This document shows, in pieces, positions 45,730 to 60,382 of a DNA stretch of 64,000 nucleotides. The notes below the pieces were generated by a model, which was not told the origin of the DNA, did no database searches, and saw only the letters and a program-made list of their open reading frames with translations. Both the position numbers and the translations under genes were made by a program. The stretch is taken from assembly GCA_964554375.1 (NCBI GenBank), contig CAZKOL010000003.1:7206-71205 (forward strand), read 5' to 3'. Numbering within the stretch: the stretch's first letter is position 1; the number at the start of each line of letters is the position of its first letter. Source of the DNA: an uncultured Dehalococcoidales bacterium (GTDB lineage Bacteria > Chloroflexota > Dehalococcoidia > GIF9 > UBA5629).

Positions 45730-45812
45730 AATATTGTTCAGCTTGCTGATGCTGTGTTGAATACGGTAGGTTTTCATGTATAATAGGAATAAATACCTGA
45801 AGAATAAAGAAT

Positions 45813-46409: not shown

Positions 46410-46430
46410 CCTGAGGTACAGCTGCACGAC

Positions 46431-47327: not shown

Positions 47328-47841
47328 CAGGCCGGCTGCGGCAGGCTTAAACGCGGCCCCGCTGATCGCCCTGGGCGTCTGCGCTGCGCTGGTTCTGGGC
47401 ACGTGGGTAATGAGCGGCATGGCGGAAAAACAAACGGCCGATATGCAATTGCTGCTGAGCCAGAAGGCCGCCCAGCTTGGCAGCATGCAAAAACAGTACC
47501 GTGACGTAATAGACTTGACTACTAAAGCGAGCGATGCTGATCAGCAGATGCTGGCCCGGCTTAACGCGCCCATCAAGTATCTTGCTGAACAGAGGGGCAT
47601 GGTAAATCGCGACCTCGGGCAGGTTTTTGCAGCCCTGCCGGCTACCGTGTACCTGACAAGTGTTACCGATGACGGGAATCTCATACAGGTGCAGGGCTCG
47701 GCCCCCAGCGAAGAGATAATACTCAATTATGCCCGTGACCTGAGGAACTCGGGGATGTTCAGACTGGTATTGATAAGCTCGGTTGGCGCCAGCACTTACA
47801 CGGAAGTGACTTTTACCATTCAGTTGACTGTAAAACAGTGA
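47305..47841 (+). CDS. PilN-like pilus alignment protein
   Basis: N-terminal TM, then a coiled-coil and a C-terminal domain. The start codon (a TTG in the ORF track) is uncertain. Confidence 0.4.
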   Translation: MPSAAPADRPAAAGLNAAPLIALGVCAALVLGTWVMSGMAEKQTADMQLLLSQKAAQLGSMQKQYRDVIDLTTKASDADQQMLARLNAPIKYLAEQRGMVNRDLGQVFAALPATVYLTSVTDDGNLIQVQGSAPSEEIILNYARDLRNSGMFRLVLISSVGASTYTEVTFTIQLTVKQ

Positions 47842-47862
47842 ACCCGGGAAATATCAAATAAG

Positions 47863-48927
47863 ATGCATATCGACGAGTTATTGAAGCTGGCGGGGGAGAG
47901 CAGGGCCTCGGACCTGCACCTTATCGTGGGCGTGCCGCCCCTCTTCCGCATCGACGGTGAACTGAGACCTGCCGAAGGCCTGCCCGTGATGAAGCACGAG
48001 GATATCGACCATCTATTCAACCAGATCGCGCCTGCACGACAGCGGGACATCTTTTCCAAGGAGCTCGAGGTCGACTTTGCCTATTCCCTGCAGAGTGGTG
48101 GGCGGGGCAGGTGCAACGCCTGCTGGCAACAGGGATCAATCAGCCTTGCCGTACGCCTGCTGCCACAGCGCATACCGACAGTAGAAGACCTTGGCCTGCC
48201 CGATATGTGCAAGGAATTGATCAACAGGCCCCGGGGACTGATATTGGTCACCGGCCCAACGGGTTCAGGTAAGAGCACCAGCATCGCCGCCATGCTCAAT
48301 CACCTCAACAACACCATGAAGCGCTACATCGTAACCATCGAGGATCCCGTTGAGTACGTGCACCCCAATATAAAATGCGCTTTTTCTCAAAGGGAGTTGG
48401 AGCAGGACACGCACTCCTTTGTCAACGCCCTCAAGTACGTGCTCAGGCAGGACCCTGATGTGATACTGGTGGGCGAAATGCGCGACCTCGAAACGGCGTC
48501 GGCCGTGATGACCGTGGCCGAGACCGGCCACCTGGTATTATCCACGGGCCATGCTCCCAGCGCAGCCCAGTCGGTGGAAAGGATAGTGGATATGTTTCCT
48601 CCGCATGAGAGGAGCATGGCGCAGGCCCGCCTGGCGTCGACGCTTCTCGCTGTCTTCAGCCAGGTATTGGTGCCGCGCATCAGCGGAGGCAGGGTGGCGG
48701 CGGTGGAGATAATGCTGGCCAACGCGGCGGTCAAGAACCTGATACGCGAGGACAAACCCTTCCTAATACCAAACACCATACGCACCAGCTCCAATGTTGG
48801 CATGAAAACGCTGGATGACGCACTGGTCGACCTGTACAGGAAGGGGATTATCACAAGGGAGTACGTATTCGCCTTTTGCCAGGACGCTGAGGATGTGAAC
48901 AAGCTTCTGAGGGCGGCAAACATCTGA
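47863..48927 (+). CDS. pilT: twitching-motility retraction ATPase PilT
   Basis: Walker A GPTGSGKST and the overall length. Confidence 0.85.
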   Translation: MHIDELLKLAGESRASDLHLIVGVPPLFRIDGELRPAEGLPVMKHEDIDHLFNQIAPARQRDIFSKELEVDFAYSLQSGGRGRCNACWQQGSISLAVRLLPQRIPTVEDLGLPDMCKELINRPRGLILVTGPTGSGKSTSIAAMLNHLNNTMKRYIVTIEDPVEYVHPNIKCAFSQRELEQDTHSFVNALKYVLRQDPDVILVGEMRDLETASAVMTVAETGHLVLSTGHAPSAAQSVERIVDMFPPHERSMAQARLASTLLAVFSQVLVPRISGGRVAAVEIMLANAAVKNLIREDKPFLIPNTIRTSSNVGMKTLDDALVDLYRKGIITREYVFAFCQDAEDVNKLLRAANI

Positions 48928-48945
48928 TTAAAACGGAGAATAAAA

Positions 48946-48983
48946 AGAGGGGCTCGAAATCGATTTCGAGCCCCTCTTTTTTT
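48946..48983. terminator. bidirectional rho-independent terminator between pilT and pilA
   Basis: Perfect 15-bp inverted repeat GAGGGGCTCGAAATC/GATTTCGAGCCCCTC, flanked by AAAAA on one side and TTTTTTT on the other. Confidence 0.6.
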
Positions 48984-49003
48984 AGCACAGTATCAATAAT
49001 GAT

Positions 49004-49336
49004 TTAGGGGCAGGCGTCTTGGGTTATGGCGCCGGTGCTCTGGTCGACCGTATATGTGCACTTAGGTGCGCTTAAGAGGTAATCTTTCACACTGCTATTA
49101 GTAGCTCCCGCAGTTATCGGGGTTGCTGGAGGCGTGCCATTATGCTCATACATGTAGGCAGCTACTGCGGTCTGGATGTTTGCCATATCAGTGGCATTGG
49201 CCTCGCTCTCTCCTGAGCCGATAAACTTGGTCACATTGAGGACGACCACCGCTGCTAATGTGCCCAATATAGCTATGACCACCAGTAACTCGATGAGCGT
49301 GAAACCCTTATTACCGTACTTGAAAAACTTTTTCAT
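49004..49336 (-). CDS. pilA: type IV major pilin
   Basis: The KGFTLIELLVVIAILG prepilin leader and a GGAGGG RBS. The C-terminus is S/T-rich and carries a disulfide pair (C...C). Confidence 0.75.
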   Translation of the reverse strand: MKKFFKYGNKGFTLIELLVVIAILGTLAAVVVLNVTKFIGSGESEANATDMANIQTAVAAYMYEHNGTPPATPITAGATNSSVKDYLLSAPKCTYTVDQSTGAITQDACP

Positions 49337-49548
49337 ATTTCCCTCCATATTCTATTTTGCCTGCCCGTACCGACCTCACAGGGCTCTTTTATTTACACAT
49401 TATTTATACATTATCTATATCGCAAGGTCAATAGCCTGATGGTAATCCCTTGGCAGTACTTAAGTACCGCTCTTGCACATAAACCAGTTTATGTTATATC
49501 TTAGCAAAGATAATGGACGTGACAAAAGTCATAAGGTCAGTGGCCTGA

Positions 49549-52014
49549 ATGCGCACCGATAATAATCCGGCCGATACCACACGGTCCGGTAGGTTGGATA
49601 TTGCATTGGAGGCTACATGGCTGCTGCTCATATTTTTGCTACCGGTCTATTTTAACCCGCTTGGCTACCAGGCCTTCTATTTTGCCAAGGCGCTGTTGCT
49701 GCAATTTGGGGTTTGCCTGCTGTTAGGTCTCTATTTAGCCCGCTGGTTTCTTGCAGGCCATCATGAGGCTCCGTTCAATCTGTTATTGGCTCTCAGACGA
49801 TCATCACTGCAGGTCGCAGTAATAGTATTCGGCCTGTTGTGGGCGGTTTCGACTGTATTATCCATCATGCCCGAGGCAAGTTTCTGGGGCAGCCTTGCGC
49901 GCAAGAACGGCTTGAGCACCTTAATAGCCTGGGTCGTATTATTTTTCATCGTGGCCCAGGGCGTGCGCAATAAGTCGCAGCTTTATAGGGCGCTGACTGT
50001 ACTGATTGTTTCTGCCGGTATAGTATCTCTATTCGGTATCCTGGAGTTAGCTGATCCCCGGCTGTTAGCATGGCTTTCAAGAAACGGCCGGGTATCGGCA
50101 ACCGATGGCAATCCGCTTTCTTTGAGTTGCTTTATAGCTATGGTGCTTCCCGCTAATCTGGCCCTGATTACAATAGTCTGGTATGGCCCGGATGGGGGCA
50201 TTAAAAAGGCGGTTAAAGTTACCGGATTTACACTGGTATTCACCCTGCAAATGATCTGCCTGTACCTTGCTCAGTATTCCATAACCATACTGCTTTTCAT
50301 ACCCGGCATGTTCATTTATTTTCTGCTGACAGGAATTTCTTTAAGAAGAAAGGCCACCATTGCTTTGAGCGCAGTAGCGCTTGCGATGCTCCTGCTATTG
50401 GCGGCTATTATTGTCGGCCAGACGCTGATGCCGCGGACGGTTGATACAGCTGTTGCCCCGGCTACCCCGGATACTACAGTGGCAGGGCAGGCCGGCTTGA
50501 ACACACTTGGTTTGAGAGCAAAGCAATGGACCTGCGCAATAAGCGTTGTCCTTGATTCGCCTGAAGTGCCGTTGTATGACAATAATCACCATTTTTTACG
50601 GAGGTGGACGGGTTATGGCCCGGAAATGTTTGTGATAGCTTCACAGGCTGACTATCCTCCTGCTATGAAGAGTAATGACACCTATAATTCCATGTTACTT
50701 GGCCAACCGGAAAACCATTACCTTTACCTAGCCGCCACCGTAGGGCTGCTTGGACTGGCTGCATTCCTGGCTGTTATTTTAATATTCTTTTATCTGGGAT
50801 TGAGGTTGCTGCGCAAATCCCGGGAGAAGGACGTGATTTACCTGGCGTCTGCTTTTATGGCAGGCATTGCACAGTATTGCGTCCATATACTGTTTAACCC
50901 GACTGCCATCCTGCCGGAATTCATGTTCTGGTTGATGTTAGCTTTAATGGCTGCCATGACCAGGATGGAGATGACCGGGGGTGATGAACTTGATGCGTTT
51001 GCCAGTTATGGATCAGGGATAAAGAGATCATCGGAAAAGGCAGACAGCGGAAAGCTCCGGAAAGCCACTGCGGTCTTTGTGGTAATCGTATTCATAGGGG
51101 TGGGGTTTAGCCTGACTTTCAGCCCTGCACTGGCAGATATGAAATTGAATAGTGCTTTGAGGACTTGGTCAAGCGATTCAAACAAGACTATGGCAAACTT
51201 GGCCGAGGCTGCGAACCTCGAACCGGGCGAATCCGTTTACTATGGTTACGTCGGGGCATATGCATTTAAGCTGGCTGTCGCTTCGAATGATGCCGCAGAA
51301 AAATCCAAACTTATGGCCTTGAGCACTGCAGCCTATGGAGCTGCCGGTAAGCGTGAGCCATACCTGGCGTACTGGAGCTGTACCACAGGTGATGTCTATA
51401 CATACTGGGCCAACCATGATGATCCTGACAAGTGGACGGATGCGCTTCGTTATTATAAGCGTGCGGATATTCTTATGCCGGGCAACGCGGTCATCCTCAA
51501 CAAATGGGCGCTGGCCCTGATGTTGAAAGGGGATTACGCAGAGGCGGGCCGAAAGCTGTCCGAGTCACGCAGCGCAGATGGAGAATGGGTTCCTACGACT
51601 TACTATACCGGGCTTCTTGATATATACGAGCACTGCTACTGCACCGCCGGTTATTGCTTCGTGTCCCCGGTAGAGAGGAAGATCGAGAATGTGGGGCCTT
51701 ATATCAGCTTCTGTAGTCAGCTTGCTCTGTATGAGGATCTTGGCAAAGTAGTGGATGGGTTAAAAATATATGACGGTTGCCACCCGGGGGACTGGATCGG
51801 GCAGGCGCTGCTGGGCATTGCTGAAGTGTACGATAATAAGTTGGCAGCCGCGGAGGACTCTTTCCGCAGGTCTGCCCGTAATGTACCTCCGGAGCACGCC
51901 GGTATGCTTAAGGAAATAATTACACGTATGGGTAAGGATAATCCGGGCTTCCAGCTGATGGCGCAGGATATAGCCGACTCGCTTAATGTAAAAATACCCG
52001 GCAATACCAGGTAG
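49549..52014 (+). CDS. O-antigen-ligase (Wzy_C)-like polytopic membrane protein with C-terminal TPR domain; candidate pilin O-glycosyltransferase
   Basis: About 12 predicted TM helices over the first 470 aa with Wzy_C-like topology, followed by a soluble TPR-like region. Lies divergent to pilA and upstream of pilD. Confidence 0.5.
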   Translation: MRTDNNPADTTRSGRLDIALEATWLLLIFLLPVYFNPLGYQAFYFAKALLLQFGVCLLLGLYLARWFLAGHHEAPFNLLLALRRSSLQVAVIVFGLLWAVSTVLSIMPEASFWGSLARKNGLSTLIAWVVLFFIVAQGVRNKSQLYRALTVLIVSAGIVSLFGILELADPRLLAWLSRNGRVSATDGNPLSLSCFIAMVLPANLALITIVWYGPDGGIKKAVKVTGFTLVFTLQMICLYLAQYSITILLFIPGMFIYFLLTGISLRRKATIALSAVALAMLLLLAAIIVGQTLMPRTVDTAVAPATPDTTVAGQAGLNTLGLRAKQWTCAISVVLDSPEVPLYDNNHHFLRRWTGYGPEMFVIASQADYPPAMKSNDTYNSMLLGQPENHYLYLAATVGLLGLAAFLAVILIFFYLGLRLLRKSREKDVIYLASAFMAGIAQYCVHILFNPTAILPEFMFWLMLALMAAMTRMEMTGGDELDAFASYGSGIKRSSEKADSGKLRKATAVFVVIVFIGVGFSLTFSPALADMKLNSALRTWSSDSNKTMANLAEAANLEPGESVYYGYVGAYAFKLAVASNDAAEKSKLMALSTAAYGAAGKREPYLAYWSCTTGDVYTYWANHDDPDKWTDALRYYKRADILMPGNAVILNKWALALMLKGDYAEAGRKLSESRSADGEWVPTTYYTGLLDIYEHCYCTAGYCFVSPVERKIENVGPYISFCSQLALYEDLGKVVDGLKIYDGCHPGDWIGQALLGIAEVYDNKLAAAEDSFRRSARNVPPEHAGMLKEIITRMGKDNPGFQLMAQDIADSLNVKIPGNTR

Positions 52015-52016
52015 TA

Positions 52017-52814
52017 TTGACAAGGATTGAATTGGAAATAATTGTTGCCGCCATCTTTTTTCTGCTCGGCATCAGCGTGGGCAGCTTCCTCAACGTGGTG
52101 GCCGACCGCGTTCCTGCCGGCGAATCCATTCTCCGCCCTCCCTCCCACTGTTTCAGTTGCGGCCACCTTTTAGAGCCGCGCGATCTCTTCCCCATCGTCA
52201 GCTACCTGTTGTTGAGGGGGAAGTGCCGATACTGCGGGAAGACTATTCCCATGCGCTCCGTGCTGGTCGAGCTGGCCAGCGGGCTGCTCTTTGTAATGGC
52301 GCTTACCATATTCGGGCTGAGCTGGCAGACGCTGAGCGCCATTATTTTCGGGTCGTTGTTCATAGTCCTTTTCTTAACCGATTTGGAGCGAGGCCTGCTG
52401 CCGCACGTTATCGTCTACCCCGGCACTGCCACAGCCCTGGTCTTCGCGGCGCTCAGGCCGCTCACGGGCACGACACCGGGCCTGTTAAGCTCCCTGGCCG
52501 GGTTGGGTGTAAGCTATGGCATCTTCTTAATCATCTGGGCCGTGCCCAGGATGTTCAAGAAAGACATCATCGGTTTCGGGGATGTGGGTATAGCAGGGTT
52601 GATTGGCGCGTCAGTCGGATACCCCACCGCCCTGGTGGCATTATCAATTGGTATCCTGGCCGGCGGCCTGGCCGCCGCCATGCTGGCGCTATTCAAGGTT
52701 AAGAAACTCAGCGAACCGCTGCAGTTCGGCATGTTTTTAGCCTTCGGTGGCATGATGGCGCTCTTCTGCGGGCAGGACATCGTAGATGCCCTGCGGCAAC
52801 TTCTCACGCTGTGA
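52017..52814 (+). CDS. pilD: prepilin peptidase (A24 family)
   Basis: N-terminal CxxC...CxxC zinc motif (CFSCGHL...CRYCGK) and a C-terminal peptidase A24 TM domain (FGDVGIAGLIGA). Confidence 0.8.
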   Translation: MTRIELEIIVAAIFFLLGISVGSFLNVVADRVPAGESILRPPSHCFSCGHLLEPRDLFPIVSYLLLRGKCRYCGKTIPMRSVLVELASGLLFVMALTIFGLSWQTLSAIIFGSLFIVLFLTDLERGLLPHVIVYPGTATALVFAALRPLTGTTPGLLSSLAGLGVSYGIFLIIWAVPRMFKKDIIGFGDVGIAGLIGASVGYPTALVALSIGILAGGLAAAMLALFKVKKLSEPLQFGMFLAFGGMMALFCGQDIVDALRQLLTL

Positions 52815-53042
52815 ACCGGGCATAATTAACGCGGTAAAAATTTTTCTGACAAATTCATTTACGTTCAAGCAGGGTATTGACATATATGCGGTTATGTGCT
52901 AACTTTATCAACGTCCCAAGTAATCAAAGTTGGAACGGGGAGGCAGAGGCCCTAACACATGGCAAGCGAAGGCTGGTCGGTGCGAGGGGGTGGATGAGGA
53001 ACCGGGATAACGAGGTTACTTGGGGCGTTTTATTTTTTGACG

Positions 53043-54464
53043 CTATTCCAGCACTACTATAGAGGGAAGATTGCGGTATTTGCCGCCCATGTCCAGACCG
53101 TAGCCGACCACGAACTCATCAGGTATCTCGAAACCCACGTAGTCCAGGTGCACATCTATCAGCCTCCGCACCCGCTTATCCAGCAGGGTGCAAACTTTCA
53201 GGCTGGCCGGCTTGCGTGCAGACAGGTTATTTAGCACATAGTTCAGTGTCATGCCTGTGTCCACGATGTCCTCCACCATCAGCACGTGTTTGTTCTCGAT
53301 ATCGGTATCCAGGTCTTTCATTATCCTTACTGAGAGGTCTGCTTTGTCCGCCGGCGTGGATATGGCCATAAAATCCACTGTCACCGGTATGGATATATTG
53401 AGCATAAGGTCGGACAGAAAGCACACAACACCCTTCAGGATGCCGATCAGGACAAGCTCCTGGCCCTGGTAATCCCTCGATATCTGCTTGGCCAGCAATT
53501 TGACGCGTCGCTGGATCTGGGTCTTGTTGAACAGGTAGCGCTGCACACCCGTCATTTTGCTCTCGCCCAGGGGGATGAAACCGTGCCTGGCAAACAATTT
53601 CAAATAGTCTCCCTTGTTGAGCAGCTTGATACTGATATCGGGGTATAGCTCCTTGAGGTGGCGAACTTTGCGGTTTTTCTCCGTGATGAGGCTCTGCCTG
53701 GACGTGGTAAGCTCGATATACAGGTCTATCTCGGGCAGGTAGAAGTCAGGGGTGAACATCTCCGTGATCCGGTTATCCTGCGAGGAAAGCGGGAAGGAGC
53801 GCGGTTCGTACAGCCACTCCACCTGGTAGAAATCTAAAAGGCGGGCGAATTCCTCCTCGCTGGGGTGCCCGAAATTAACGGGCCTGATGGGCGATAGCGG
53901 GAGGTCGGAAAAGCTGGTCAGCCTCTTCTGCTGCGTGATGTTGGCCTGGTGGCGGTTGCTGAGATCCTGGGCAAGCTCTATCTTCTCAAGAGTCAACGAT
54001 AGTATGTTGGCCACTGTGGAGATGAAGTCCTTCTCGTTGGGCTTGAAGTGCCGCTTCTCCCGTGTGTAAACCCTTATCTCGCCGATCACCTCGCCATGCT
54101 GTAGGATGGGCGCCCCCAGCAGGGACTTGAGGTTCTCGCGGGCGGCATGCTCCGGGTACTGGGTGCGCTTATCCGAGTAAATATCCTCTACAGAAACTAT
54201 CTTGCCGTCGAGTATGTCAGGGTAGCTTTTACGGGCATTGATGGCCCCCTTGCGCAGGTACAGGTCGCTCAGACCCCAGGCGCCTATGATATCCAGGTAT
54301 TCCCTGCGCGGGTTGAGCAGCATAACGGCGCAGCCGGAGGCATGCAAACCCCTGGCGGCGCCGGCAGCGATGGTGCTGACCAGCTTTTTAAACGATAGGC
54401 TATCGTTGGCAGCCTTGACTATTTGCTTATAAGCAAGGGAATAGCGATTCTCAGTGGCATCCAT
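53043..54464 (-). CDS. hpt: GAF sensor domain - unknown middle domain - hypoxanthine/guanine phosphoribosyltransferase fusion
   Basis: N-terminal GAF of about 170 aa. The C-terminal 175 aa are a full Hpt (VEDIVDTGMTL PRPP loop, GYGLDMGGKYRNLP). A roughly 150 aa middle segment carries a DUF559/PD-(D/E)xK-like motif, TPDFYLPEIDLYIELT. Confidence 0.6.
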   Translation of the reverse strand: MDATENRYSLAYKQIVKAANDSLSFKKLVSTIAAGAARGLHASGCAVMLLNPRREYLDIIGAWGLSDLYLRKGAINARKSYPDILDGKIVSVEDIYSDKRTQYPEHAARENLKSLLGAPILQHGEVIGEIRVYTREKRHFKPNEKDFISTVANILSLTLEKIELAQDLSNRHQANITQQKRLTSFSDLPLSPIRPVNFGHPSEEEFARLLDFYQVEWLYEPRSFPLSSQDNRITEMFTPDFYLPEIDLYIELTTSRQSLITEKNRKVRHLKELYPDISIKLLNKGDYLKLFARHGFIPLGESKMTGVQRYLFNKTQIQRRVKLLAKQISRDYQGQELVLIGILKGVVCFLSDLMLNISIPVTVDFMAISTPADKADLSVRIMKDLDTDIENKHVLMVEDIVDTGMTLNYVLNNLSARKPASLKVCTLLDKRVRRLIDVHLDYVGFEIPDEFVVGYGLDMGGKYRNLPSIVVLE

Positions 54465-54498: not shown

Positions 54499-57129
54499 TC
54501 ATCCGCATTTAGTATAGCCGCAGCCTGGACAGATATGGCAACCCTCCTGGTAAACCAGCTGGTTGCCGCAATCCGGGCACTGGCCGGTGTAATTGGCCGG
54601 CTGGCTCAAGCCGTATTTCGCCGATACGCTATCATCCTCTTTTTTAGCATATTTCTCAAGTACGCTGCCGATGGCGTCGGCGCAGGACAGGATGGCACGG
54701 CCGTTCTCCCAGGATACAGAGGGACACCTGATGGTCCTGAGTTGCTTTATAACCGAGCCTACCTCTATGCCCGAACGTAGCACCAGTGAGATCAGCCTGC
54801 TGGTGGCCTCAAGCTGTGCAGAGGCACAGCCGCCGGCTTTGCCCAGGCTGGAGAATACCTCGCAGATGCCCTTGTCATCGAAGTTGACTGTTACGTATAT
54901 ATAGCCGCAACCGGTCGTAACACGCTCGGTTATACCCCTGGTGATCTTGGGCCTCTGACGGGGCGCCGGCCTGGCCTCGCTTTCAGTATCCATGGCTTTG
55001 GCCTTTGGGGTTTCCTTCCGGCCTGTATTGAGGACCTGGCTTTCTCGGCTCCTGTCCCTGTAGATGGTAATGCCCTTGAGGCCGGATTTATAGGCCAGCA
55101 TATATACTTTCTGCACATCATCTATCGTAGCCTCAAAAGGAAGGTTGACCGTTTTAGAGACAGCGCTGTCCGTGTATTTCTGGAAGGCTGACTGTATCTT
55201 CACGTGCCAATCAGGTGAGATCTCATGAGAGGTTACAAAGACCTCTTTTACCCAGGCGGGCACTTCCTTCATGTCATGCAGGCTGCCGCCCTCTGCCAGC
55301 TTTTTCATCAACTCGGGTGAGTAAAAGCCCTCCTCCCTGGCAACGGCTTCGAAATAGGGGTTGATCTCTATCAGAGTCTGGCCGTCCAGTATGTGACGGA
55401 AATAGCTGAGCGCGAAGAGGGGCTCGATGCCGCTGGAGCAGTTGGCGATGATACTCAGCGTGCCGGTGGGGGCGATGGTGGTCCGAGTGGCGTTCCTGAC
55501 CCTGAGGCCGTCATTGCTATCGTAGGTGCTCCCGCCGAAGGCAGGGAAGAGGCCGCGCGAAGTACCCAGCGAAACAGATTCGGCGGTGGCCTTATCGGAG
55601 ATAAATCGCATGACCTTCTCTGCTGTCTCCAAAGCTTTTTCAGAATTATAGGGCACGCGAAGCTGGATGAGCATGTCGGCGAAGCCCATTACCCCGAGGC
55701 CGATCTTGCGGGTCTTGCGCGTCATCTCGTCTATCTGGGGCAGTGGAAACTGGTTCACCTCGATAACATCGTCCAGGAAGCGCACGGCCAGTTTAATAGT
55801 CTCCCCGAGCTTGTTATAGTCGATCTCGCAATCACCGTTGGACCGGCGCAGCATGTGGGAGAGGTTGATCGAGCCCAGATTGCATGATTCGTAGGGGAGA
55901 AGGGGTTGCTCACCGCAGGGATTGGTGCTCTCTATCCTGCCCAGGTTGGGCGTGGAGTTGGCTGCATTGATACGGTCTATGAAGATGATGCCGGGATCGC
56001 CGGTACTCCAGGCCATATCGACTATCTTGCAGAAGACCTGGCGGGCGTTGAGCCGCCCTTCCACTGCCCTGGTGTTGGGGTTGACCAGACTGTAATCTCC
56101 ATCGGCTTCGACGGCCTGCATGAAGCTATCGGTGACCGCCACGGATATGTTGAAGTTGGTGAAAGCTTTGGGGTCCTCCTTGGAAGTGATGAATTCCAGG
56201 ATATCGGGATGGTCCACGTTGAGGATGCCCATATTTGCCCCCCGCCGCATGCCGCCCTGCTTGATAACATCGGTTGCCGTATCGAAGGCGCGCATGAATG
56301 ATACGGGCCCGCTGGCAACGCCGCCGGTGGACCCCACGCGGTCCAGCTTGGGCCTGAGGCGGGAAAAGGAGAAGCCCGTGCCTCCCCCGCTCTTGTGAAT
56401 AAGAGCCGTGTACTTGACGGCATCGAAAATGGATTCCATGGTGTCTTCGATCGGGAGAACGAAGCAGGCGGACAGTTGTCCCAAATCCCGTCCGGCATTC
56501 ATGAGCGTGGGCGAATTGGGCAGGAAGTCCAGCGAGGTCATCAGCCGGTAAAACATGTCTTCCCAGTTCCCCACAGCGGCGTTGCTGTCGAATACCAGTT
56601 CGGCCGAAGCAATGTGCCTGCTGACCCTGCTGAAAAGATCCTCGGGTTTCTCTTCGGGGTTGCCCTGGCTGTCTTTCTGCAGGTACCTTTTCTCCAGAAC
56701 GACCATGGCGTTCTCTGACAGCTTTAATTCAACAGGCGCAGGTTTGTCGGCCGGCGGCGATTTGCCCGCCCGCGCAGGATTTGCTGCGGGCGGAGATTGC
56801 ACGGCCTGTCTTTCAGCCGGCGGCCTGGCGCTGGCCTTTTCAGCCAGCAACTCGTTTACTATCGTCACTATGCGCTCCTTGGGTGGCAGAGGAAGTGTGA
56901 CGGGCGCTACCAGATGCTCCATGCCCGGCAGGGCGGGTTCGATCCTTTTGGCTGTGGTCTGTTCATCCATAGACATTCTCTTCTCCAAACTCGATATTAC
57001 TTGCTCAGTCAGCTCCTCGAGCTCACGCCTGTCGGTGATGCCCATGGTCTGGGTATAGGTAAAAACCGTCCTTGCGACGAAATTCCTTACGGAATCGGGG
57101 AGCTGGTTTCTGGCCTGCTTATTTACCAT
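54499..57129 (-). CDS. nrdJ: adenosylcobalamin-dependent ribonucleotide reductase (class II)
   Basis: Conserved NrdJ N-terminal block (MVVLEKRYLQKD) and a C-terminal zinc ribbon (CPDCG...CPGCG). An N-terminal extension of about 140 aa means the true start may be internal. Confidence 0.85.
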   Translation of the reverse strand: MVNKQARNQLPDSVRNFVARTVFTYTQTMGITDRRELEELTEQVISSLEKRMSMDEQTTAKRIEPALPGMEHLVAPVTLPLPPKERIVTIVNELLAEKASARPPAERQAVQSPPAANPARAGKSPPADKPAPVELKLSENAMVVLEKRYLQKDSQGNPEEKPEDLFSRVSRHIASAELVFDSNAAVGNWEDMFYRLMTSLDFLPNSPTLMNAGRDLGQLSACFVLPIEDTMESIFDAVKYTALIHKSGGGTGFSFSRLRPKLDRVGSTGGVASGPVSFMRAFDTATDVIKQGGMRRGANMGILNVDHPDILEFITSKEDPKAFTNFNISVAVTDSFMQAVEADGDYSLVNPNTRAVEGRLNARQVFCKIVDMAWSTGDPGIIFIDRINAANSTPNLGRIESTNPCGEQPLLPYESCNLGSINLSHMLRRSNGDCEIDYNKLGETIKLAVRFLDDVIEVNQFPLPQIDEMTRKTRKIGLGVMGFADMLIQLRVPYNSEKALETAEKVMRFISDKATAESVSLGTSRGLFPAFGGSTYDSNDGLRVRNATRTTIAPTGTLSIIANCSSGIEPLFALSYFRHILDGQTLIEINPYFEAVAREEGFYSPELMKKLAEGGSLHDMKEVPAWVKEVFVTSHEISPDWHVKIQSAFQKYTDSAVSKTVNLPFEATIDDVQKVYMLAYKSGLKGITIYRDRSRESQVLNTGRKETPKAKAMDTESEARPAPRQRPKITRGITERVTTGCGYIYVTVNFDDKGICEVFSSLGKAGGCASAQLEATSRLISLVLRSGIEVGSVIKQLRTIRCPSVSWENGRAILSCADAIGSVLEKYAKKEDDSVSAKYGLSQPANYTGQCPDCGNQLVYQEGCHICPGCGYTKCG

Positions 57130-57664
57130 TTTGCTGTTTCAACCTCGACCGCCGCCTCTGCCCGGACATCTCAGCTTTGTTGATAAGCGGGAGTTGGCCG
57201 TCAAGGGGCGCGCCAAGCTTGCTCTCGATAAGTGTATCGACTGCCTGCTTGAGAGTAGTGATATCGGAAAACTCGTAGTAAACGCTGGCAAAGCGTATGT
57301 AAGCGATATGGTCCAGTTCCGACAGCCGCGTCACCACGATCTTGCCGATAAGCGTACTGGGTATCTCGGTCCTGCCCAGGCTGTAAAGCTCAGCCTCAAT
57401 GGTCTCCACTAATTTCTCGATAGTGCCAGTCGGCATGGGACGTTTCTCGCAGGCCTTGCGTATTCCGGAGAATAACTTCTCACGGTCGAACTCTTCCCGG
57501 CGCCCATCCTTTTTTATCACATACAGGCTCCTGTTCTGCAGCCTTTCGTAAGTGGTAAAGCGCGCCCGGCACACGGTGCACTCGCGCCGCCGCCTGATCT
57601 CATCTCCCAGGCTCCTCGAGTCTATTACCTTGGATTCCGGCTCACCGCAAGAAGGACACTTCAT
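57119..57664 (-). CDS. nrdR: transcriptional repressor NrdR
   Basis: The MKCPSCG...CTVC zinc ribbon followed by an ATP-cone; basic C-terminal tail. Confidence 0.85.
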   Translation of the reverse strand: MKCPSCGEPESKVIDSRSLGDEIRRRRECTVCRARFTTYERLQNRSLYVIKKDGRREEFDREKLFSGIRKACEKRPMPTGTIEKLVETIEAELYSLGRTEIPSTLIGKIVVTRLSELDHIAYIRFASVYYEFSDITTLKQAVDTLIESKLGAPLDGQLPLINKAEMSGQRRRSRLKQQNGK

Positions 57665-57670
57665 CTCACA

Positions 57671-57717
57671 ACACTATAATATGTGGTTTAACTGGATACT
57701 AACACAACATATAGTAA
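57671..57717 (-). promoter_or_regulatory. two putative NrdR boxes
   Basis: ACACTATAATATGTGG (57671-57686) and ACACAACATATAGTAA (57702-57717) approximate the acaCwAtATaTwGtgt consensus. They lie 31 bp apart and directly upstream of nrdR. Confidence 0.35.
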
Positions 57718-57744
57718 GAGTCAATGGTCTAATAGACATAAATG

Positions 57745-57777
57745 GGACGGGGCGGAGAAATTTTCTCCGCCCCGTCC
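57745..57777 (-). terminator. stem-loop downstream of ftsZ (candidate terminator)
   Basis: Perfect 16-bp inverted repeat GGACGGGGCGGAGAAA/TTTCTCCGCCCCGTCC with a 1-nt centre. The minus-strand tail is only moderately T-rich. Confidence 0.4.
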
Positions 57778-57807: not shown

Positions 57808-58920
57808 TCAGCGCTGCATCCTGTTGATGCCTACCGGTTGAGGGGCTGCCGCTTGCGCATTGGGATAACGCGAGCCTCTCCTCAAGAATGAGGGTACATC
57901 GAGACTATCTTCGGTAGCTCCTCTCAGCAGCCTGCGCAATTCGACCTCTGTGGGTACGCCGGAACCATACTGCGCGGTGAAGCCTGTAGCAATGATGGTG
58001 ATCTGGACCTCGTCCTCCATCTGCGGATTGAAGACGACGCCGAAGATGATGTTGGCATCGGGGTCTACTGACTGTGAGATCACGTCGGCTGCCTCGTTGC
58101 ACTCGAAGAGGGTCAGGTTGCTGCCGCCCGTGACATTGAAGAGTACGCCCTTGGCGCCGCTGATCGATACGTCGAGCATCGGGCTGGCCAGCGCGTTTTT
58201 GGCGGCTTCTACTGCCCTGTTGGTACCTTTCCCGCGGCCGACTGACATCCAGGCCGGACCGGAGTTCTTCATAATAGCCCTGATGTCCGCGAAGTCGAGA
58301 TTGATGAGGCCGGGGACAGTCACGACCTCGGCGATGGCCTGCACGCCCAGGCGCAGCACATCGTCTGCCAGCCTGAAGGCATTGTCCACGGTGGTCTTGT
58401 TGTCACAGAGTTCTACAATGCGGTCGTTGGGGATGATGACCAGCGTGTCTACCTTATCGCAAAGCTGCAGTATGCCTTCCTCGGCGACCTTCATGCGGCG
58501 GCCGCCCTCGAAGGAGAAGGGCTTGGTGACGATGGCGATTGTGAGTGCGCCTGAGGACCTGGCGGTTTCAGCTACCACGGGTATGCTGCCTGTGCCTGTG
58601 CCGCCGCCCATGCCGGCCGTGATGAATACCATGTCAGCGCCGGCCACCACTTCCTGGATGGCCTGGCGGCTTTCCTCGGCAGATTTGCGCCCGACGTTGT
58701 GGTCGCCGCCGGCGCCGAGGCCGCGGGTTAGTTTCTCTCCGAGCTGGATGCGGACCGGTACTTCGGCCAGTGCCAGAGCCTGGGCATCGGTGTTCATGCA
58801 AATGAATTCCACGCCCTTGATGCCTTCACGGACCATGCGGGTGATGGCGTTGGATCCGCCGCCCCCGCAGCCGATAGCCTTGATTTTGGCCGGTGCGGTC
58901 GAGAACATTGATTTTGACAT
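57808..58920 (-). CDS. ftsZ: cell division GTPase FtsZ
   Basis: GCGGGGSN, the GGGTGTG tubulin signature and a C-terminal linker and tail. Confidence 0.95.
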   Translation of the reverse strand: MSKSMFSTAPAKIKAIGCGGGGSNAITRMVREGIKGVEFICMNTDAQALALAEVPVRIQLGEKLTRGLGAGGDHNVGRKSAEESRQAIQEVVAGADMVFITAGMGGGTGTGSIPVVAETARSSGALTIAIVTKPFSFEGGRRMKVAEEGILQLCDKVDTLVIIPNDRIVELCDNKTTVDNAFRLADDVLRLGVQAIAEVVTVPGLINLDFADIRAIMKNSGPAWMSVGRGKGTNRAVEAAKNALASPMLDVSISGAKGVLFNVTGGSNLTLFECNEAADVISQSVDPDANIIFGVVFNPQMEDEVQITIIATGFTAQYGSGVPTEVELRRLLRGATEDSLDVPSFLRRGSRYPNAQAAAPQPVGINRMQR

Positions 58921-58957
58921 TCTTTATTAAACCTCCTGCTATTTACCTAATATTTAT

Positions 58958-60178
58958 TTATGCGCCGAAGAATTTCTTGAGCATACCCATGACGTTATTT
59001 AACGAGCTTGCCTGCTGGGGCTTGGCTTCCCAGGTGGGCTTGCCGCCGGTCTTGATGGCCCAGAGCAGCAAACCTACGCCGGTAGCGTTGGCCGGATCAT
59101 GCAGAACGTCGGTAATACCATATACTCCCATCGGCTCGCCGATCCTGGTGGGGATGCGTATGGTGGCGCGGGCCAGCGCTTCCAGCCCGTTCATCTTGGA
59201 CCCGCCGCCGGTCATAACCAGGCCTGCAGGGGCCAGCGCGGCGTAGCTGGTATCGGGCATTTCGAGCAGTATCAGCCTGAGCAGCTCTTCCATGCGGTCC
59301 CTCAGTATGTTGCTGAGGTCCTTGTAGGAGACGCTGTGTCCATCCTCCACTGTCAACGTGGAGCCCTCGTCCTTTGACCCGGTCTCGGGATAAACGTTGC
59401 CGTACTTCTTCTTCATCGCCTCGGCGATCTCGAAGGGCAATCCAAGGCCGATGGAGAGGTCGCTGGTGAACTGGTAGCCGGCCACCGGTATAATGGACGT
59501 GTGGTAGATGCTGCCGTCCCTGAATACGGCGATGTCTGTGGTGCCGCCACCGATATCAGCCATGATCACGCCGATCTCCTTCTCTTCGGGGGTGAGAACG
59601 GACTCGCCGCTGGCCAGCGGCTCGAGCACCAGGTCGTCGATCTCGACTCCCACGCTGCGCACACACTTGACCAGGTTTTGTACGGAGGCGGTTGAGGCTG
59701 TGATTATATGTGTCTCAACATCCAGCCGGAATCCGTGCATGCCCACCGGGTTCTTGATCTTCTCCTGGGTATCCAGGCTGTAGCCGCGGGGTATCTGGTG
59801 CAGTATCTTCCTGTCATCGGGTATATTCATGTTCTTGGCCGCAGACAGCACGCGTGACAGGTCGTCCGACCTTACCAACCTGTCGGTGCGCGGTATGGCA
59901 ACAACACCGTGGCTGTTGACCGAGCTGATGTGCCGGCCTGTGACACCGATGTAAGCCGACTCGATCTTTACGCCGCTGGCCTGCTCAGCGCGCTTTACCG
60001 ATTCGGCTACCGAGTCCCTGGCCTCCTCGACATTGACCACCATGCCTTTGTGAAGGCCATGGGACGGTACCTGTCCGACACCGAGCACCTGAAGCGCACC
60101 CCCGGAATCAAGGGTGGCAACTATGGTGCATATCTTGGTTGTGCCCACGTCGATGCCGGTAATTAGTTTTTTGGTCAT
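58958..60178 (-). CDS. ftsA: cell division protein FtsA
   Basis: Actin-like ATPase: GIDVGTTKI and DIGGGTTD. Confidence 0.9.
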   Translation of the reverse strand: MTKKLITGIDVGTTKICTIVATLDSGGALQVLGVGQVPSHGLHKGMVVNVEEARDSVAESVKRAEQASGVKIESAYIGVTGRHISSVNSHGVVAIPRTDRLVRSDDLSRVLSAAKNMNIPDDRKILHQIPRGYSLDTQEKIKNPVGMHGFRLDVETHIITASTASVQNLVKCVRSVGVEIDDLVLEPLASGESVLTPEEKEIGVIMADIGGGTTDIAVFRDGSIYHTSIIPVAGYQFTSDLSIGLGLPFEIAEAMKKKYGNVYPETGSKDEGSTLTVEDGHSVSYKDLSNILRDRMEELLRLILLEMPDTSYAALAPAGLVMTGGGSKMNGLEALARATIRIPTRIGEPMGVYGITDVLHDPANATGVGLLLWAIKTGGKPTWEAKPQQASSLNNVMGMLKKFFGA

Positions 60179-60227
60179 TAATACTAGCCTCCTTCGATTT
60201 AATGCTTACTAATAATCTAATATTTGC

Positions 60228-60362
60228 TACAAGAAGTAGAGGATGGTGATTGCTATTATCAGGCTGATGAAAACGACGCCATCGAAGACCATGCCCCCGA
60301 ATATGGTCAGGAGTTTCCGGTCATTGCTCAGGATGGAGTTAAGTCTTTTTGATCCGATCATT
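60228..60362 (-). CDS. small single-TM protein between rsmH and ftsA (FtsL-position ORF)
   Basis: 44 aa (MIGSKRLNSILSNDRKLLTIFGGMVFDGVVFISLIIAITILYFL) preceded by a GAAGGAGG RBS. Below the ORF-track length cutoff. Confidence 0.3.
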
Positions 60363-60382
60363 TTCTTTGCCTCCTTCATTTT

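What the first reader, a model, noticed from the sequence alone, without database searches (positions are those of the whole stretch)
53043..54464. GAF-sensor/unknown-domain/Hpt fusion: ligand-gated purine salvage?
One continuous 473-aa ORF joins a complete GAF domain, a roughly 150-aa segment with a DUF559/PD-(D/E)xK-like motif (PDFYLPEIDLYIELT) and a complete hypoxanthine-guanine phosphoribosyltransferase. Hpt is normally a standalone 180-aa enzyme. A GAF N-terminus suggests allosteric control by a small molecule, for example a cyclic nucleotide or (p)ppGpp-like ligand.
Basis: seen in the sequence. Interest (0 to 1): 0.5.

Follow-up and report, generated by a model that had tools for sequence, protein, structure and literature searches.

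The report
GAF–endonuclease-like–Hpt purine salvage fusion
A real, conserved three-part protein joins a sensor domain and a previously unnamed endonuclease-like domain to the purine-recycling enzyme Hpt, and that endonuclease-like domain proves to be a constant, unstudied partner of Hpt in hundreds of bacterial species.

Summary
The 473-aa ORF (53043-54464, minus strand) is real. It reads GAF (about 23-160), long helix and linker, a roughly 100-aa domain "X" (about 200-295), then a complete Hpt (307-473). It is not a frameshift artefact: more than 120 full-length homologues (62-90% identity) and 27 species-level genomes keep it intact, usually inside a conserved nrdR-nrdJ-(GAF-X-hpt) unit. X has a PD-(D/E)xK fold and is a distant homologue of phage T7 endonuclease I. 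The acidic residues E203, D240 and E251 are invariant, but the canonical lysine is an invariant threonine (ExT in 485 of 486 sequences). No Pfam or NCBIfam model covers X. In all 80 species genomes sampled, X is fused to Hpt or encoded directly upstream of hpt, across several phyla. The part N-terminal to X varies (GAF, a cytidylate-kinase-like P-loop domain, Arg/Gly-rich tails, or nothing). So GAF is a clade-specific input and X-Hpt is the conserved core. The mechanism is inferred: X probably binds, and may cut, a nucleic acid or phosphate ligand and so couples or controls Hpt. The GAF ligand is unknown. Separately, an unannotated, covarying structured RNA of about 125 nt lies convergent to the gene and recurs next to X-Hpt fusions in two phyla.

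The parts
53043..54464 (-). Whole gene: GAF-X-Hpt fusion protein, 473 aa plus stop codon
   Evidence: ORF list. More than 120 full-length homologues of 473-483 aa. 27 species genomes carry the same architecture.
53985..54398 (-). GAF domain (residues about 23-160)
   Evidence: PF01590 and PF13185 score above their gathering thresholds. pLDDT is above 90 in the full-length model. Nearest solved relatives are 3e0y and the PtsP GAF 3ci6.
53868..53984 (-). Extension of the last GAF helix (helix 142-184 in the model) followed by a low-confidence linker (185-199)
   Evidence: AF2 secondary structure shows H142-184, and pLDDT is below 50 at 185-193. This is the least conserved part of the protein: 24% of positions are 90% or more conserved.
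53580..53867 (-). Domain X (residues about 200-295): endonuclease-I-like PD-(D/E)xK domain with E203, D240 and E251-L-T253, and invariant K263 in the KNRK helix
53547..53579 (-). Short flexible linker between X and Hpt (residues about 296-306)
   Evidence: pLDDT is below 50 at 298-303.
53046..53546 (-). Hypoxanthine(-guanine) phosphoribosyltransferase domain (residues about 307-473). Catalytic loop II reads ISTPADKAD and lacks the usual Ser-Tyr.
   Evidence: TIGR01203 scores 195.9 bits against a 150 cut-off. PDB alignments show the KG, VEDIVDTGMT, LLDK, FVVGYGLD and YRNLP motifs. Loop II comparison across the family.
54499..57129 (-). Ribonucleotide reductase gene (Ribonuc_red_lgN and lgC plus a C-terminal TSCPD domain; 'nrdJ' and 'class II' are my reading) directly upstream on the same strand, with a 34-nt gap and no terminator-like site between it and the fusion gene
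   Evidence: Pfam Ribonuc_red_lgC, Ribonuc_red_lgN and TSCPD. Found upstream of the fusion in 21 related loci. No terminator-like site in the gap.
57119..57664 (-). nrdR (Zn-ribbon plus ATP-cone repressor), first gene of the putative unit nrdR-nrdJ-(GAF-X-hpt)
   Evidence: Pfam hits. Conserved upstream in 18 loci.
57671..57777 (-). Control region. A strong hairpin (57777-57745) follows ftsZ. Then comes a promoter-like site TTGACT-17-TAGTAT (57724-57696). Two NrdR-box-like palindromes lie at 57715-57702 and 57686-57671.
   Evidence: Promoter and terminator scan. Sequence. An exact CACW8GTG occurs only here in the window, but the count is not above chance when one mismatch is allowed. The box consensus is from memory.
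52877..53038 (+). Convergent small RNA gene. It has an extended -10-type promoter (TTGACA 52877-82; TGcTAACTT 52897-905). The structured RNA of about 125 nt runs 52913-53038, and its U-tail ends 4 nt before the stop codon of the fusion gene.
   Evidence: MFE -53.4 kcal/mol with z -6.5 on the + strand, against z -2.1 on the - strand. Near-identical in L006 and L007. Covariance-model hits in about 42 loci. Covariation test. Distribution by architecture. No Rfam match.

Best explanation
This is a genuine three-domain protein that is probably co-transcribed with nrdR and the ribonucleotide reductase gene nrdJ. The C-terminal domain is a working, or at least near-canonical, hypoxanthine/guanine phosphoribosyltransferase. 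The middle domain X is a cellular offshoot of the phage endonuclease I branch of the PD-(D/E)xK nucleases. It keeps the three metal-binding acidic residues and a basic helix, but its canonical catalytic lysine is replaced by threonine. X, not GAF, is the constant partner of Hpt: it is fused to Hpt or encoded immediately upstream of hpt in many phyla. My preferred mechanism is inferred. X forms a Mg2+-dependent binding site for a phosphodiester-containing partner, most likely a structured nucleic acid, which it binds and may cut. Through that site X either tethers Hpt to the partner or makes Hpt activity respond to it. In this Dehalococcoidia clade, the GAF domain adds a small-molecule input that is passed on through its long C-terminal helix. 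Shown here: the architecture, its conservation, the fold, the motif states, the genomic linkage and the operon context. Inferred: nucleic-acid binding, any control of Hpt, and the existence of a GAF ligand.
For: The fusion is real and conserved. Hpt scores above the equivalog cut-off and keeps its PRPP-binding and purine-binding motifs. X has a PD-(D/E)xK fold and is homologous to T7 endonuclease I, with E203, D240 and E251 mapping to E20, D55 and E65 and T253 at the K67 position. E, D, E and K263 are invariant across phyla, and the motif is ExT in 485 of 486 sequences. In 80 of 80 sampled species genomes X is fused to hpt or sits directly upstream of it. X and hpt lie 10 bp apart in Anaerolineae, next to a divergent purine nucleoside phosphorylase gene. 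Both genes sit in the same co-directional cluster in Acidimicrobiia. The N-terminal modules are interchangeable: GAF, a Cytidylate_kin2 P-loop domain, or long KPKRRRGSRGGRRHKK-type repeats, which are typical of nucleic-acid-binding tails. X is conserved at least as strongly as Hpt: 63% of X positions against 60% of Hpt positions are 90% or more conserved, and X is 49-66% identical across phyla. The nrdR-nrdJ-fusion order is conserved, with no terminator-like site between the genes. There is a precedent for Hpt working in a DNA-binding complex with the product of its upstream gene: B. subtilis TilS-HprT (PMC8152036).
Against: There is no biochemical evidence for any step. AlphaFold gives no confident inter-domain arrangement (pTM 0.43), so no X-Hpt interface is supported. 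The canonical lysine is absent. From memory, 2pfj is the cleavage-dead K67A form of T7 endonuclease I; the chain shown does carry Ala at that position. Yet the acidic triad is invariant, which does not fit a purely passive binding domain. The partner could therefore be a small phosphate-bearing ligand and not a nucleic acid. The window's own sub-clade has lost the Ser-Tyr of Hpt catalytic loop II, so its Hpt may be slower or regulated differently. Only the 80 species genomes most similar to the query were examined for gene context, out of at least 598 that carry X.
Confidence: 0.45

Rival explanations
1. This is the first reader's model, a purely small-molecule-gated enzyme. GAF binds a metabolite or second messenger. 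X acts only as a dimerising or transmitting adaptor, or as a second small-ligand site that uses its Mg2+ triad for a nucleotide such as (p)ppGpp, PRPP or GTP. Together they tune Hpt activity through its quaternary state. No nucleic acid is involved.
For: The N-terminal modules attached to X are typical ligand-binding domains: GAF and a P-loop NMP-kinase-like domain. The GAF ends in a long helix of the kind seen in signalling proteins. Hpt activity and (p)ppGpp sensitivity are known to depend on the dimer-tetramer equilibrium and on loop II (PMC6783271). The acidic triad without the lysine could bind a metal-phosphate ligand.
Against: X's relatives are all nucleic-acid enzymes or binders. Several lineages replace GAF with Arg/Gly/Lys-rich repeats, which suggest polyanion binding and not metabolite sensing. 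No inter-domain packing is predicted. The nearest GAF relatives give no clue to a ligand.
Confidence: 0.22
2. This is a trigger-enzyme or regulator model. The protein, or the X plus Hpt complex, mainly acts as a DNA- or RNA-binding regulator. Its Hpt domain reports PRPP, purine or (p)ppGpp status and its GAF domain reports a further signal. This would parallel B. subtilis TilS-HprT, PyrR or PurR. Possible targets are the nrd operon or the neighbouring small RNA.
For: The TilS-HprT complex binds DNA and activates ftsH (PMC8152036). From my own knowledge, PyrR and B. subtilis PurR are phosphoribosyltransferase-fold proteins that bind RNA and DNA respectively. X lacks the canonical catalytic lysine, as does the mutant T7 endonuclease I chain 2pfj shown, which from memory is cleavage-dead and was solved bound to a junction. 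The gene sits in the nrdR operon. A conserved structured RNA gene abuts the fusion in two phyla.
Against: No target site has been identified. The Hpt domain looks fully enzymatic. The invariant acidic triad is not needed for plain binding. The RNA is absent, at the sensitivity of this model, from the 14 loci where X and hpt are separate genes, so it cannot be a universal partner of X.
Confidence: 0.2
3. X is a fully active nuclease or phosphodiesterase. It would use the invariant K263 on the following helix in place of the canonical lysine. From memory, cap-snatching endonucleases use such an arrangement. The protein would then be bifunctional, linking nucleic-acid or oligonucleotide breakdown to purine salvage.
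Against: A nuclease releases nucleotides or oligonucleotides, not the free bases that Hpt uses, so there is no direct substrate channelling. The canonical lysine position is Thr in 485 of 486 sequences. An unregulated nuclease encoded in a housekeeping operon would be hazardous to the cell.
Confidence: 0.12
4. The fusion is an artefact: a sequencing or assembly frameshift, or a lost stop codon, has joined separate GAF, X and hpt genes.
For: One related contig (L001) shows GAF, X and Hpt as four overlapping ORFs in different frames. In other phyla X and hpt really are separate genes.
Against: The same uninterrupted architecture appears in more than 120 protein clusters from independent assemblies and sources, at 62-90% identity, and in 27 species-level genomes. 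The linkers are retained, and no internal start codon is conserved.
Confidence: 0.01

Closest known systems
Bacterial hypoxanthine-guanine phosphoribosyltransferase (Hpt/HprT; TIGR01203; e.g. PDB 1r3u, 2geb)
   Same: The C-terminal 167 residues align end to end with these enzymes. The PRPP loop VLMVEDIVDTGMT, the KG turn, LLDK, FVVGYGLD and YRNLP are all present.
   Different: About 300 extra N-terminal residues (GAF plus X) are attached. Loop II is two residues shorter than in 1r3u, and it lacks the Ser-Tyr pair in the window's 473-aa sub-clade, although the 483-aa sister clade keeps it.
Phage T7 endonuclease I (gp3; Pfam PF05367; PDB 1m0d, 2pfj, 3cae)
   Same: The fold is PD-(D/E)xK. The profile of X hits T7 endonuclease I at E 6e-5, and the match extends through helix 2 (KNRKxRxLxELYPxI aligned to DDRKKHLLIREQHPELDI). 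E20, D55 and E65 all have equivalents. 40 of 77 X sequences give weak PF05367 hits.
   Different: All matches fall below Pfam's gathering score. The K67 equivalent is an invariant Thr. X is a cellular family, always linked to hpt, and is not a phage junction resolvase. Phage genomes give only weak partial hits. Whether X forms a domain-swapped dimer is unknown.
TilS-HprT: the bifunctional fusion (KEGG K15780) and the B. subtilis TilS-HprT DNA-binding complex
   Same: Hpt is fused to, or translationally coupled with, the product of the gene just upstream. The B. subtilis complex has a nucleic-acid-related second function (PMC8152036). JGI in fact labels many of these proteins 'bifunctional protein TilS/HprT'.
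   Different: No TilS or PP-loop domain is present, so the JGI label is a mis-annotation. The partner here is a nuclease-fold domain with no relation to TilS.
GAF-regulated enzymes (PtsP/EI-Ntr, NifA, cyclic-nucleotide phosphodiesterases, cyanobacterial adenylate cyclases)
   Same: An N-terminal GAF domain is followed by a long helix and then an enzymatic output. The nearest sequence relatives include the PtsP GAF domain.
   Different: The output is a phosphoribosyltransferase, reached through an intervening nuclease-fold domain. I see no NKFDE-type cyclic-nucleotide signature. The ligand is unknown.
PyrR and B. subtilis PurR (phosphoribosyltransferase-fold proteins that bind RNA or DNA)
   Same: A PRT domain is combined with a nucleic-acid-binding function, and PRPP or nucleotide levels act as the signal. 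This is a resemblance in concept only, drawn from my own knowledge.
   Different: In PyrR the PRT fold itself binds RNA, and PurR uses a winged-helix domain. Here a separate PD-(D/E)xK domain is present, and nucleic-acid binding has not been shown.

Membership tests
Hypoxanthine phosphoribosyltransferase (NCBIfam TIGR01203 equivalog) | Whole-domain score above the curated equivalog cut-off | tested here: met
   195.9 bits against a cut-off of 150; residues 312-473 cover profile positions 3-167 of 167.
Hypoxanthine phosphoribosyltransferase (NCBIfam TIGR01203 equivalog) | PRPP-binding loop (acidic pair followed by D-T-G-x-T) and the purine-binding Lys, Phe/Val and Asp residues | tested here: met
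   VLMVEDIVDTGMT, LLDK, FVVGYGLD and YRNLP align to the corresponding motifs of 1r3u and 2geb. They are 90% or more conserved in the family.
Hypoxanthine phosphoribosyltransferase (NCBIfam TIGR01203 equivalog) | Catalytic flexible loop II with the conserved Ser-Tyr dipeptide | tested here: not met
   The window protein reads ISTPADKAD and is two residues shorter than 1r3u. The 473-aa sub-clade has STP, STL, SAP or SNP, whereas the 483-aa sister clade keeps ISYYG. This argues for altered kinetics or regulation, not necessarily for loss of activity.
Hypoxanthine phosphoribosyltransferase (NCBIfam TIGR01203 equivalog) | Catalyses hypoxanthine or guanine plus PRPP to IMP or GMP | not testable with these tools
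   An enzyme assay is needed.
GAF domain (Pfam PF01590 / PF13185) | HMM score above the gathering threshold over the full profile | tested here: met
   PF01590 scores 40.3 bits against 22.4 and covers profile 4-133/133. PF13185 scores 38.1 bits against 28.6.
Cyclic-nucleotide-binding GAF subgroup | NKFDE-type signature, or closest similarity to phosphodiesterase or cyclase GAF domains | tested here: not met
   No N-K...F-x3-D-E pattern is visible on inspection of residues 20-165. The phosphodiesterase GAF 5w10 scores only E 0.37, against 2.6e-5 for 3e0y and 4.9e-5 for the PtsP GAF 3ci6. The motif definition is from memory.
PD-(D/E)xK nuclease superfamily | Alpha-beta-beta-beta-alpha-beta core fold | tested here: met
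PD-(D/E)xK nuclease superfamily | Acidic metal ligands: Asp at the start of strand 2 and Asp or Glu on strand 3, plus an N-terminal helix Glu in the endonuclease I type | tested here: met
   E203, D240 and E251 are invariant in 77 cross-phylum sequences and in 112 fusion sequences, and they map to E20, D55 and E65 of T7 endonuclease I.
PD-(D/E)xK nuclease superfamily | Lysine of the (D/E)-x-K triad | tested here: not met
   The motif is E-x-T in 485 of 486 family sequences. The invariant K263 on the next helix is a possible substitute, but this is untested.
Phage endonuclease I (Pfam PF05367) | Score above Pfam's gathering threshold | tested here: not met
   13.1 bits against a cut-off of 29.1 for the window domain. 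40 of 77 relatives hit weakly, the best at E 1.5e-5. X is a distant homologue of the family and not a member.
   No DUF559 hit at E<=1 in any of the 77 X sequences. The only link is fold-level similarity to viral proteins annotated as DUF559 and to Vsr.
Bifunctional TilS/HprT (label given by JGI to homologues) | TilS PP-loop ATPase domain N-terminal to Hpt | tested here: not met
Anti-phage defence systems (PADLOC) | Significant match to a defence-system protein model | tested here: not met
   Only weak matches (E 5e-4 or weaker) to the generic PD-DEXK motif region of two models. The genomic context is housekeeping.

The most novel reading that the evidence does not exclude
X-Hpt, with GAF in this clade, forms a functional pair with the conserved, unannotated structured RNA encoded convergently next to it. 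The endonuclease-I-like domain would bind or process this RNA, so that a purine-salvage enzyme is controlled by, or acts on, a dedicated RNA. That would be a new kind of enzyme-RNA module, conserved from Dehalococcoidia to Dormibacterota.
Probability: 0.12. Interest if true: 0.85.

Novelty: new variant of a known kind. Interest (0 to 1): 0.58.

Why it matters
Hpt is a textbook stand-alone salvage enzyme, and its known bacterial regulation is by (p)ppGpp through its oligomeric state. Here, in at least several hundred species of Chloroflexota, Dormibacterota, Acidobacteriota, Acidimicrobiia and other groups, Hpt comes with a very strongly conserved nuclease-fold partner. That partner has no Pfam or NCBIfam model, and I found no literature on it. 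It accepts alternative sensor modules at its N-terminus. If X regulates Hpt or tethers it to a nucleic acid, that would reveal a new layer of control over purine nucleotide supply. In this clade that control would be wired into the ribonucleotide reductase operon. It would also give a second, independent case, after B. subtilis TilS-HprT, of Hpt acting together with the product of its upstream gene. The practical gains are these. A new domain family can be defined. The 'TilS/HprT' annotations of these proteins can be corrected. A clear set of point mutants (E203, D240, E251, T253, K263) is available for testing. The neighbouring RNA is a candidate new RNA family in its own right.

Tried and rejected
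- Frameshift artefact: rejected, because the architecture is conserved.
- DUF559 membership: rejected, no HMM hit.
- True TilS/HprT: rejected, no TilS domain.
- Defence system: rejected.
- Rfam identity for the intergenic RNA: no match at gathering thresholds or at E<=1. By eye it lacks the SRP domain IV motif and is too short for 6S RNA; that judgement is from memory.
- A third protein partner conserved across all X-hpt loci: clustering of neighbouring ORFs found only lineage-specific synteny, with nrdR-nrdJ in the GAF clade and other neighbours in Dormibacterota.
- Inter-domain geometry from AlphaFold: pTM 0.43, so nothing can be concluded.
- AFDB fold search: the library was not available.
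A regular expression for the terminal stem was used instead.
- NrdR boxes: an exact CACW8GTG palindrome sits between the -10 element and the nrdR start codon, but the window-wide count is not above chance when one mismatch is allowed. This is suggestive only.
- Literature: a search on GAF, Hpt and Dehalococcoidia returned nothing relevant. The HPRT-(p)ppGpp paper does not mention Chloroflexi or fusions.
- Phage genomes: only three weak partial hits to Gordonia phage endonuclease genes.
Full report
Window 53043-54464 (minus strand) is one uninterrupted 473-aa ORF starting at ATG, with a GAGGTG ribosome-binding-like sequence just upstream. Pfam places a complete GAF domain at residues 23-160 and a phosphoribosyltransferase domain at 315-458. 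NCBIfam's Hpt equivalog TIGR01203 covers residues 312-473 end to end, at 195.9 bits against a cut-off of 150. The best solved relatives are bacterial Hpt enzymes (1r3u, 2geb; E about 1e-53). Nothing curated matches residues 165-305.

**2. The fusion is not an artefact.** A search of 5.8 billion proteins returned more than 120 full-length proteins of 473-483 aa with 62-90% identity and the same GAF plus Pribosyltran content. They come from independent Dehalococcoidia and Chloroflexota assemblies. In species-representative genomes, 27 loci carry GAF-X-Hpt as a single reading frame. The N-terminus is conserved, and the internal Met304 is not: the family consensus has Val there. Only one contig (L001) has the three parts in overlapping shifted frames. 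That contig is most simply an error-rich assembly or a pseudogene.

**3. The middle segment is an autonomous domain, which I call X.**
- Searched alone, it retrieves hundreds of proteins, many of them stand-alone and 120-150 aa long, from several phyla at 49-66% identity.
- An exhaustive profile search finds 4,386 representatives at 50% clustering with E<=1e-3, of which 513 are below 1e-30. A second word-based search finds 6,469 clusters at 90% identity.
- Every named member is 'hypothetical protein', or has picked up an 'Hpt' or 'TilS/HprT' label from its neighbour or fusion partner.
- No NCBIfam model matches X, and no Pfam model reaches threshold.
- The core reads FAHPSEEEFAxxLDFYxIxWxYEPRSFPL...FTPDFYLPxxDLYIELTTxxQxLxTxKNRKxRxLxELYP. 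The columns E203, W217, Y219, E220, D240-F-Y-L, E251, T253, K263 and P275 are invariant.

**4. Fold and ancestry of X.**
- AlphaFold2 with a 77-sequence alignment gives a confident model (pLDDT 88, pTM 0.79) with helix-4 strands-helix-strand-helix topology.
- Foldseek against viral models returns DUF559 proteins, a Holliday-junction resolvase and Endonuclease I proteins (E down to 7e-7).
- At sequence level, 40 of 77 X sequences give sub-threshold hits to Pfam Phage_endo_I. The X profile hits T7 endonuclease I chains (3cae E 6e-5; 2pfj, 1m0d).
- That alignment maps E203, D240 and E251 onto the catalytic E20, D55 and E65. It places Thr253 where T7 has K67 ('FVETKG' against 'YIELTT').
- The substitution defines the family: the motif is E-x-T in 485 of 486 sequences.
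- In one search the 2pfj chain carries Ala at the K67 position. From memory, 2pfj is the cleavage-dead K67A enzyme bound to a junction. X therefore resembles a form that binds but cleaves poorly.
- Against that, the invariant acidic triad and the invariant K263, 12 residues further on in helix 2, leave catalysis possible. From memory, some cap-snatching endonucleases place their lysine in such a position.
X is not a DUF559 member.

**5. X is the constant partner of Hpt.** I built HMMs for the three domains and scanned the 80 species-level loci that were recovered.

| Architecture | Loci | Where |
|---|---|---|
| GAF-X-Hpt | 27 | Dehalococcoidia clade containing the window |
| X-Hpt with other or no N-terminal parts | 40 | Other Chloroflexota, Dormibacterota, Thermomicrobiales, a Planctomycetota MAG |
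| X gene immediately upstream of, often overlapping, a separate hpt | 13 | Anaerolineae, Acidobacteriota, Methylomirabilota, Dadabacteria, a deltaproteobacterial MAG |

- That makes 80 of 80 loci with X joined to or directly upstream of hpt.
- An Anaerolineae contig recovered separately (L002) shows X and hpt 10 bp apart, next to a divergent purine nucleoside phosphorylase gene.
- In Acidimicrobiia, X sits two to three genes from a PRT gene; the one I scanned with the Hpt HMM (L004) matches it. The cluster garA-MerR-S11 peptidase-PRT-BFN-MerR-X-gcvT/P is conserved and co-directional.
- Caveat: these 80 are the loci most similar to the query, out of at least 598.

**6. The N-terminal module is interchangeable.** Besides GAF, X carries:
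- a cytidylate-kinase-like P-loop domain (PF13189), with hpt as the next gene in L068, L076, L077, L080, L081 and L083;
- long basic repeats of the type KPKRRRGSRGGRRHKK, in several Chloroflexota;
- an unassigned segment of about 90 aa, in Acidobacteria;
- or nothing.

GAF is therefore a clade-specific input bolted onto a conserved X-Hpt core. The Arg/Gly-rich tails are the strongest hint that the core associates with a polyanion such as RNA or DNA.

**7. Context in the window.**
- The gene is the last in a minus-strand run: mraZ, rsmH, ftsA, ftsZ, then nrdR, nrdJ and GAF-X-hpt.
- A 15-bp hairpin follows ftsZ, and a promoter-like TTGACT-17-TAGTAT precedes nrdR. No terminator-like site separates nrdJ from the fusion gene across the 34-nt gap.
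- nrdJ lies upstream of the fusion in 21 related loci and nrdR in 18, with NrdJ identity down to about 59%.
- Two palindromes upstream of nrdR resemble NrdR boxes. That consensus is from memory, and the count is not statistically distinctive.
- The inference is that purine salvage by this protein is co-expressed with ribonucleotide reduction.

**8. State of the Hpt and GAF domains.**
- All the PRPP-binding and purine-binding motifs are present in Hpt.
- Catalytic loop II is two residues shorter than in 1r3u, and it has lost the Ser-Tyr pair in the window's 473-aa sub-clade ('ISTPADK'). The 483-aa sister clade keeps 'ISYYG'.
- Loop II covers the active site, and in bacterial HPRTs it forms the dimer-dimer interface that sets (p)ppGpp sensitivity (PMC6783271). 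This sub-clade may therefore differ in rate or in regulation.
- No second Hpt is encoded in the 64-kb window.
- The nearest solved GAF relatives are a Geobacter GAF of unknown ligand and PtsP-type GAFs; cGMP-phosphodiesterase GAFs are much more distant. The ligand cannot be inferred.
- The full-length model has confident domains and a 43-residue helix leaving the GAF. Its pTM is 0.43, and confidence is low at residues 185-193 and 298-303. No fixed inter-domain geometry is predicted.

**9. Mechanism.** The steps that are shown and those that are inferred are kept apart in the explanation sections.
- Preferred reading (0.45): X supplies a metal-dependent site for a phosphodiester-bearing partner, most likely a structured nucleic acid. 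It thereby tethers or modulates Hpt, and GAF acts as an added ligand input.
- Rival 1: a purely small-molecule allosteric enzyme (0.22).
- Rival 2: a trigger-enzyme regulator in the manner of B. subtilis TilS-HprT (PMC8152036) (0.20).
- Rival 3: a fully active nuclease (0.12).
- Rival 4: an artefact (0.01).

**10. Side finding that may matter.**
- The intergenic stretch downstream of the gene is about 97-98% identical in L006 and L007. In those two genomes PilD is only 62-66% identical to the window's, and the closest full-length fusion relatives found are 89-90% identical.
- On the + strand, convergent with the gene, it has an extended -10-type promoter and folds into a long hairpin of about 125 nt (-53.4 kcal/mol, z -6.5; the opposite strand gives z -2.1). 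Its U-tail ends 4 nt before the fusion gene's stop codon.
- Rfam has no match.
- A covariance model finds the RNA convergent and downstream of X-hpt in about 42 loci, including Dormibacterota, where all protein-coding neighbours differ.
- On 36 sequences, 93.9% of cells are paired, against 31-46% in the slid controls, and 15 of 24 pairs show compensatory changes. The alignment was fitted to the model, which is a caveat.
- By a strict terminal-stem criterion the RNA accompanies 21 of 25 GAF-X-Hpt loci and 14 of 39 other X-Hpt fusion loci. It accompanies none of the 14 loci where X and hpt are separate genes.
- This may be inherited synteny or a functional pairing; I cannot tell which.

**Verdict.** The protein is a new variant of a known kind of enzyme, built around an undescribed, widespread endonuclease-I-like partner domain of Hpt.

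Noticed in passing
window 52877-53038 (+); also L006-L031, L037-L039, L042-L045, L047, L049, L051-L054, L058, L060, L061, L063, L065, L067: An unannotated structured small RNA of about 100-160 nt. It has its own extended -10-type promoter and an invariant terminal stem (GUCCCAAGUAAUC / GGUUACUUGGGRC) followed by a U-tail. An internal module of the form AGUAGG-hairpin-GAAAAG resembles a loop E or sarcin-ricin motif and is duplicated in the 156-nt variants. The RNA is convergent with X-hpt fusion genes and lies 5-390 nt from them in Chloroflexota and Dormibacterota. Covariation is strong, and Rfam has no match.
   Followed up: yes
window 57808-61743 (-): The division and cell-wall gene cluster is reduced to mraZ, rsmH, ftsA and ftsZ, with no mur, ftsI or ftsW genes between rsmH and ftsA. 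From memory, this fits a Dehalococcoidia-type organism that lacks peptidoglycan.
   Followed up: no
window 57671-57777 (-): A 15-bp perfect hairpin follows ftsZ. Downstream of it are a promoter-like site and two NrdR-box-like palindromes about 30 bp apart, directly upstream of nrdR. Only one exact CACW8GTG occurs in the window, and it is here, but the count is not above chance when one mismatch is allowed.
   Followed up: partly
window 54499-57129 (-): The ribonucleotide reductase (which I read as class II) carries an N-terminal extension of about 135 aa before the all-alpha domain. At its C-terminus it has a TSCPD domain followed by a Cys-rich tail, CPDCG...CHICPGCG.
   Followed up: no
P0245, P0255, P0263, P0269, P0289, P0339; L068, L076, L077, L080, L081, L083: A second recurrent architecture: a cytidylate-kinase-like P-loop domain (PF13189) fused N-terminally to X. 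In the six listed loci a separate hpt gene is the next gene downstream. It occurs in Acidobacteriota, Methylomirabilota and Dadabacteria.
   Followed up: partly
L040, L048, L062, L064, L066, L069, L070, L072 (N-terminal 150-370 residues of the X-Hpt ORFs): Long, highly basic, repetitive N-terminal tails (for example AEAKPKRRRGSRGGRRHKKA repeated 4-5 times) precede X-Hpt in several Chloroflexota. They suggest RNA or DNA binding. The lengths come from stop-to-stop ORFs, but three lineages share an 'MADAP/MAQADP' start.
   Followed up: no
L004, L086, L087 (Acidimicrobiia): X occupies a fixed slot between a MerR-family gene and gcvT in a conserved cluster: garA(FHA)-MerR(Rv1828-like)-S11 peptidase-PRT-BFN-MerR-X-gcvT-gcvP. 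From memory, this is the position of a small hypothetical gene in the mycobacterial garA-gcv region.
   Followed up: partly
L032:5859-6200: A second, more divergent Hpt-like ORF lies directly downstream of the GAF-X-Hpt gene in one related genome. It is cut off by the end of the contig.
   Followed up: no
L001:5412-6857: GAF, X and Hpt appear as four overlapping ORFs in shifted frames on one metagenomic contig. This is probably indel errors or a pseudogene, and it is the only split copy seen within the GAF clade.
   Followed up: no
window 44410-52814 (+): A run of type IV pilus-related genes is convergent with the fusion gene. I annotated four ORFs: a PilM-like protein (46431-47327), a T2SSE ATPase (47863-48927), an 821-aa membrane protein with a Wzy_C domain (49549-52014) and a prepilin peptidase (52017-52814). 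The ORFs at 44410-46409 were not annotated.
   Followed up: no
homologues P0013-P0030 and others: JGI annotates many GAF-X-Hpt proteins as 'bifunctional protein TilS/HprT', and several stand-alone X proteins as 'hypoxanthine phosphoribosyltransferase'. Both labels are mis-annotations: the first group has no TilS domain and the second has no PRT domain.
   Followed up: yes
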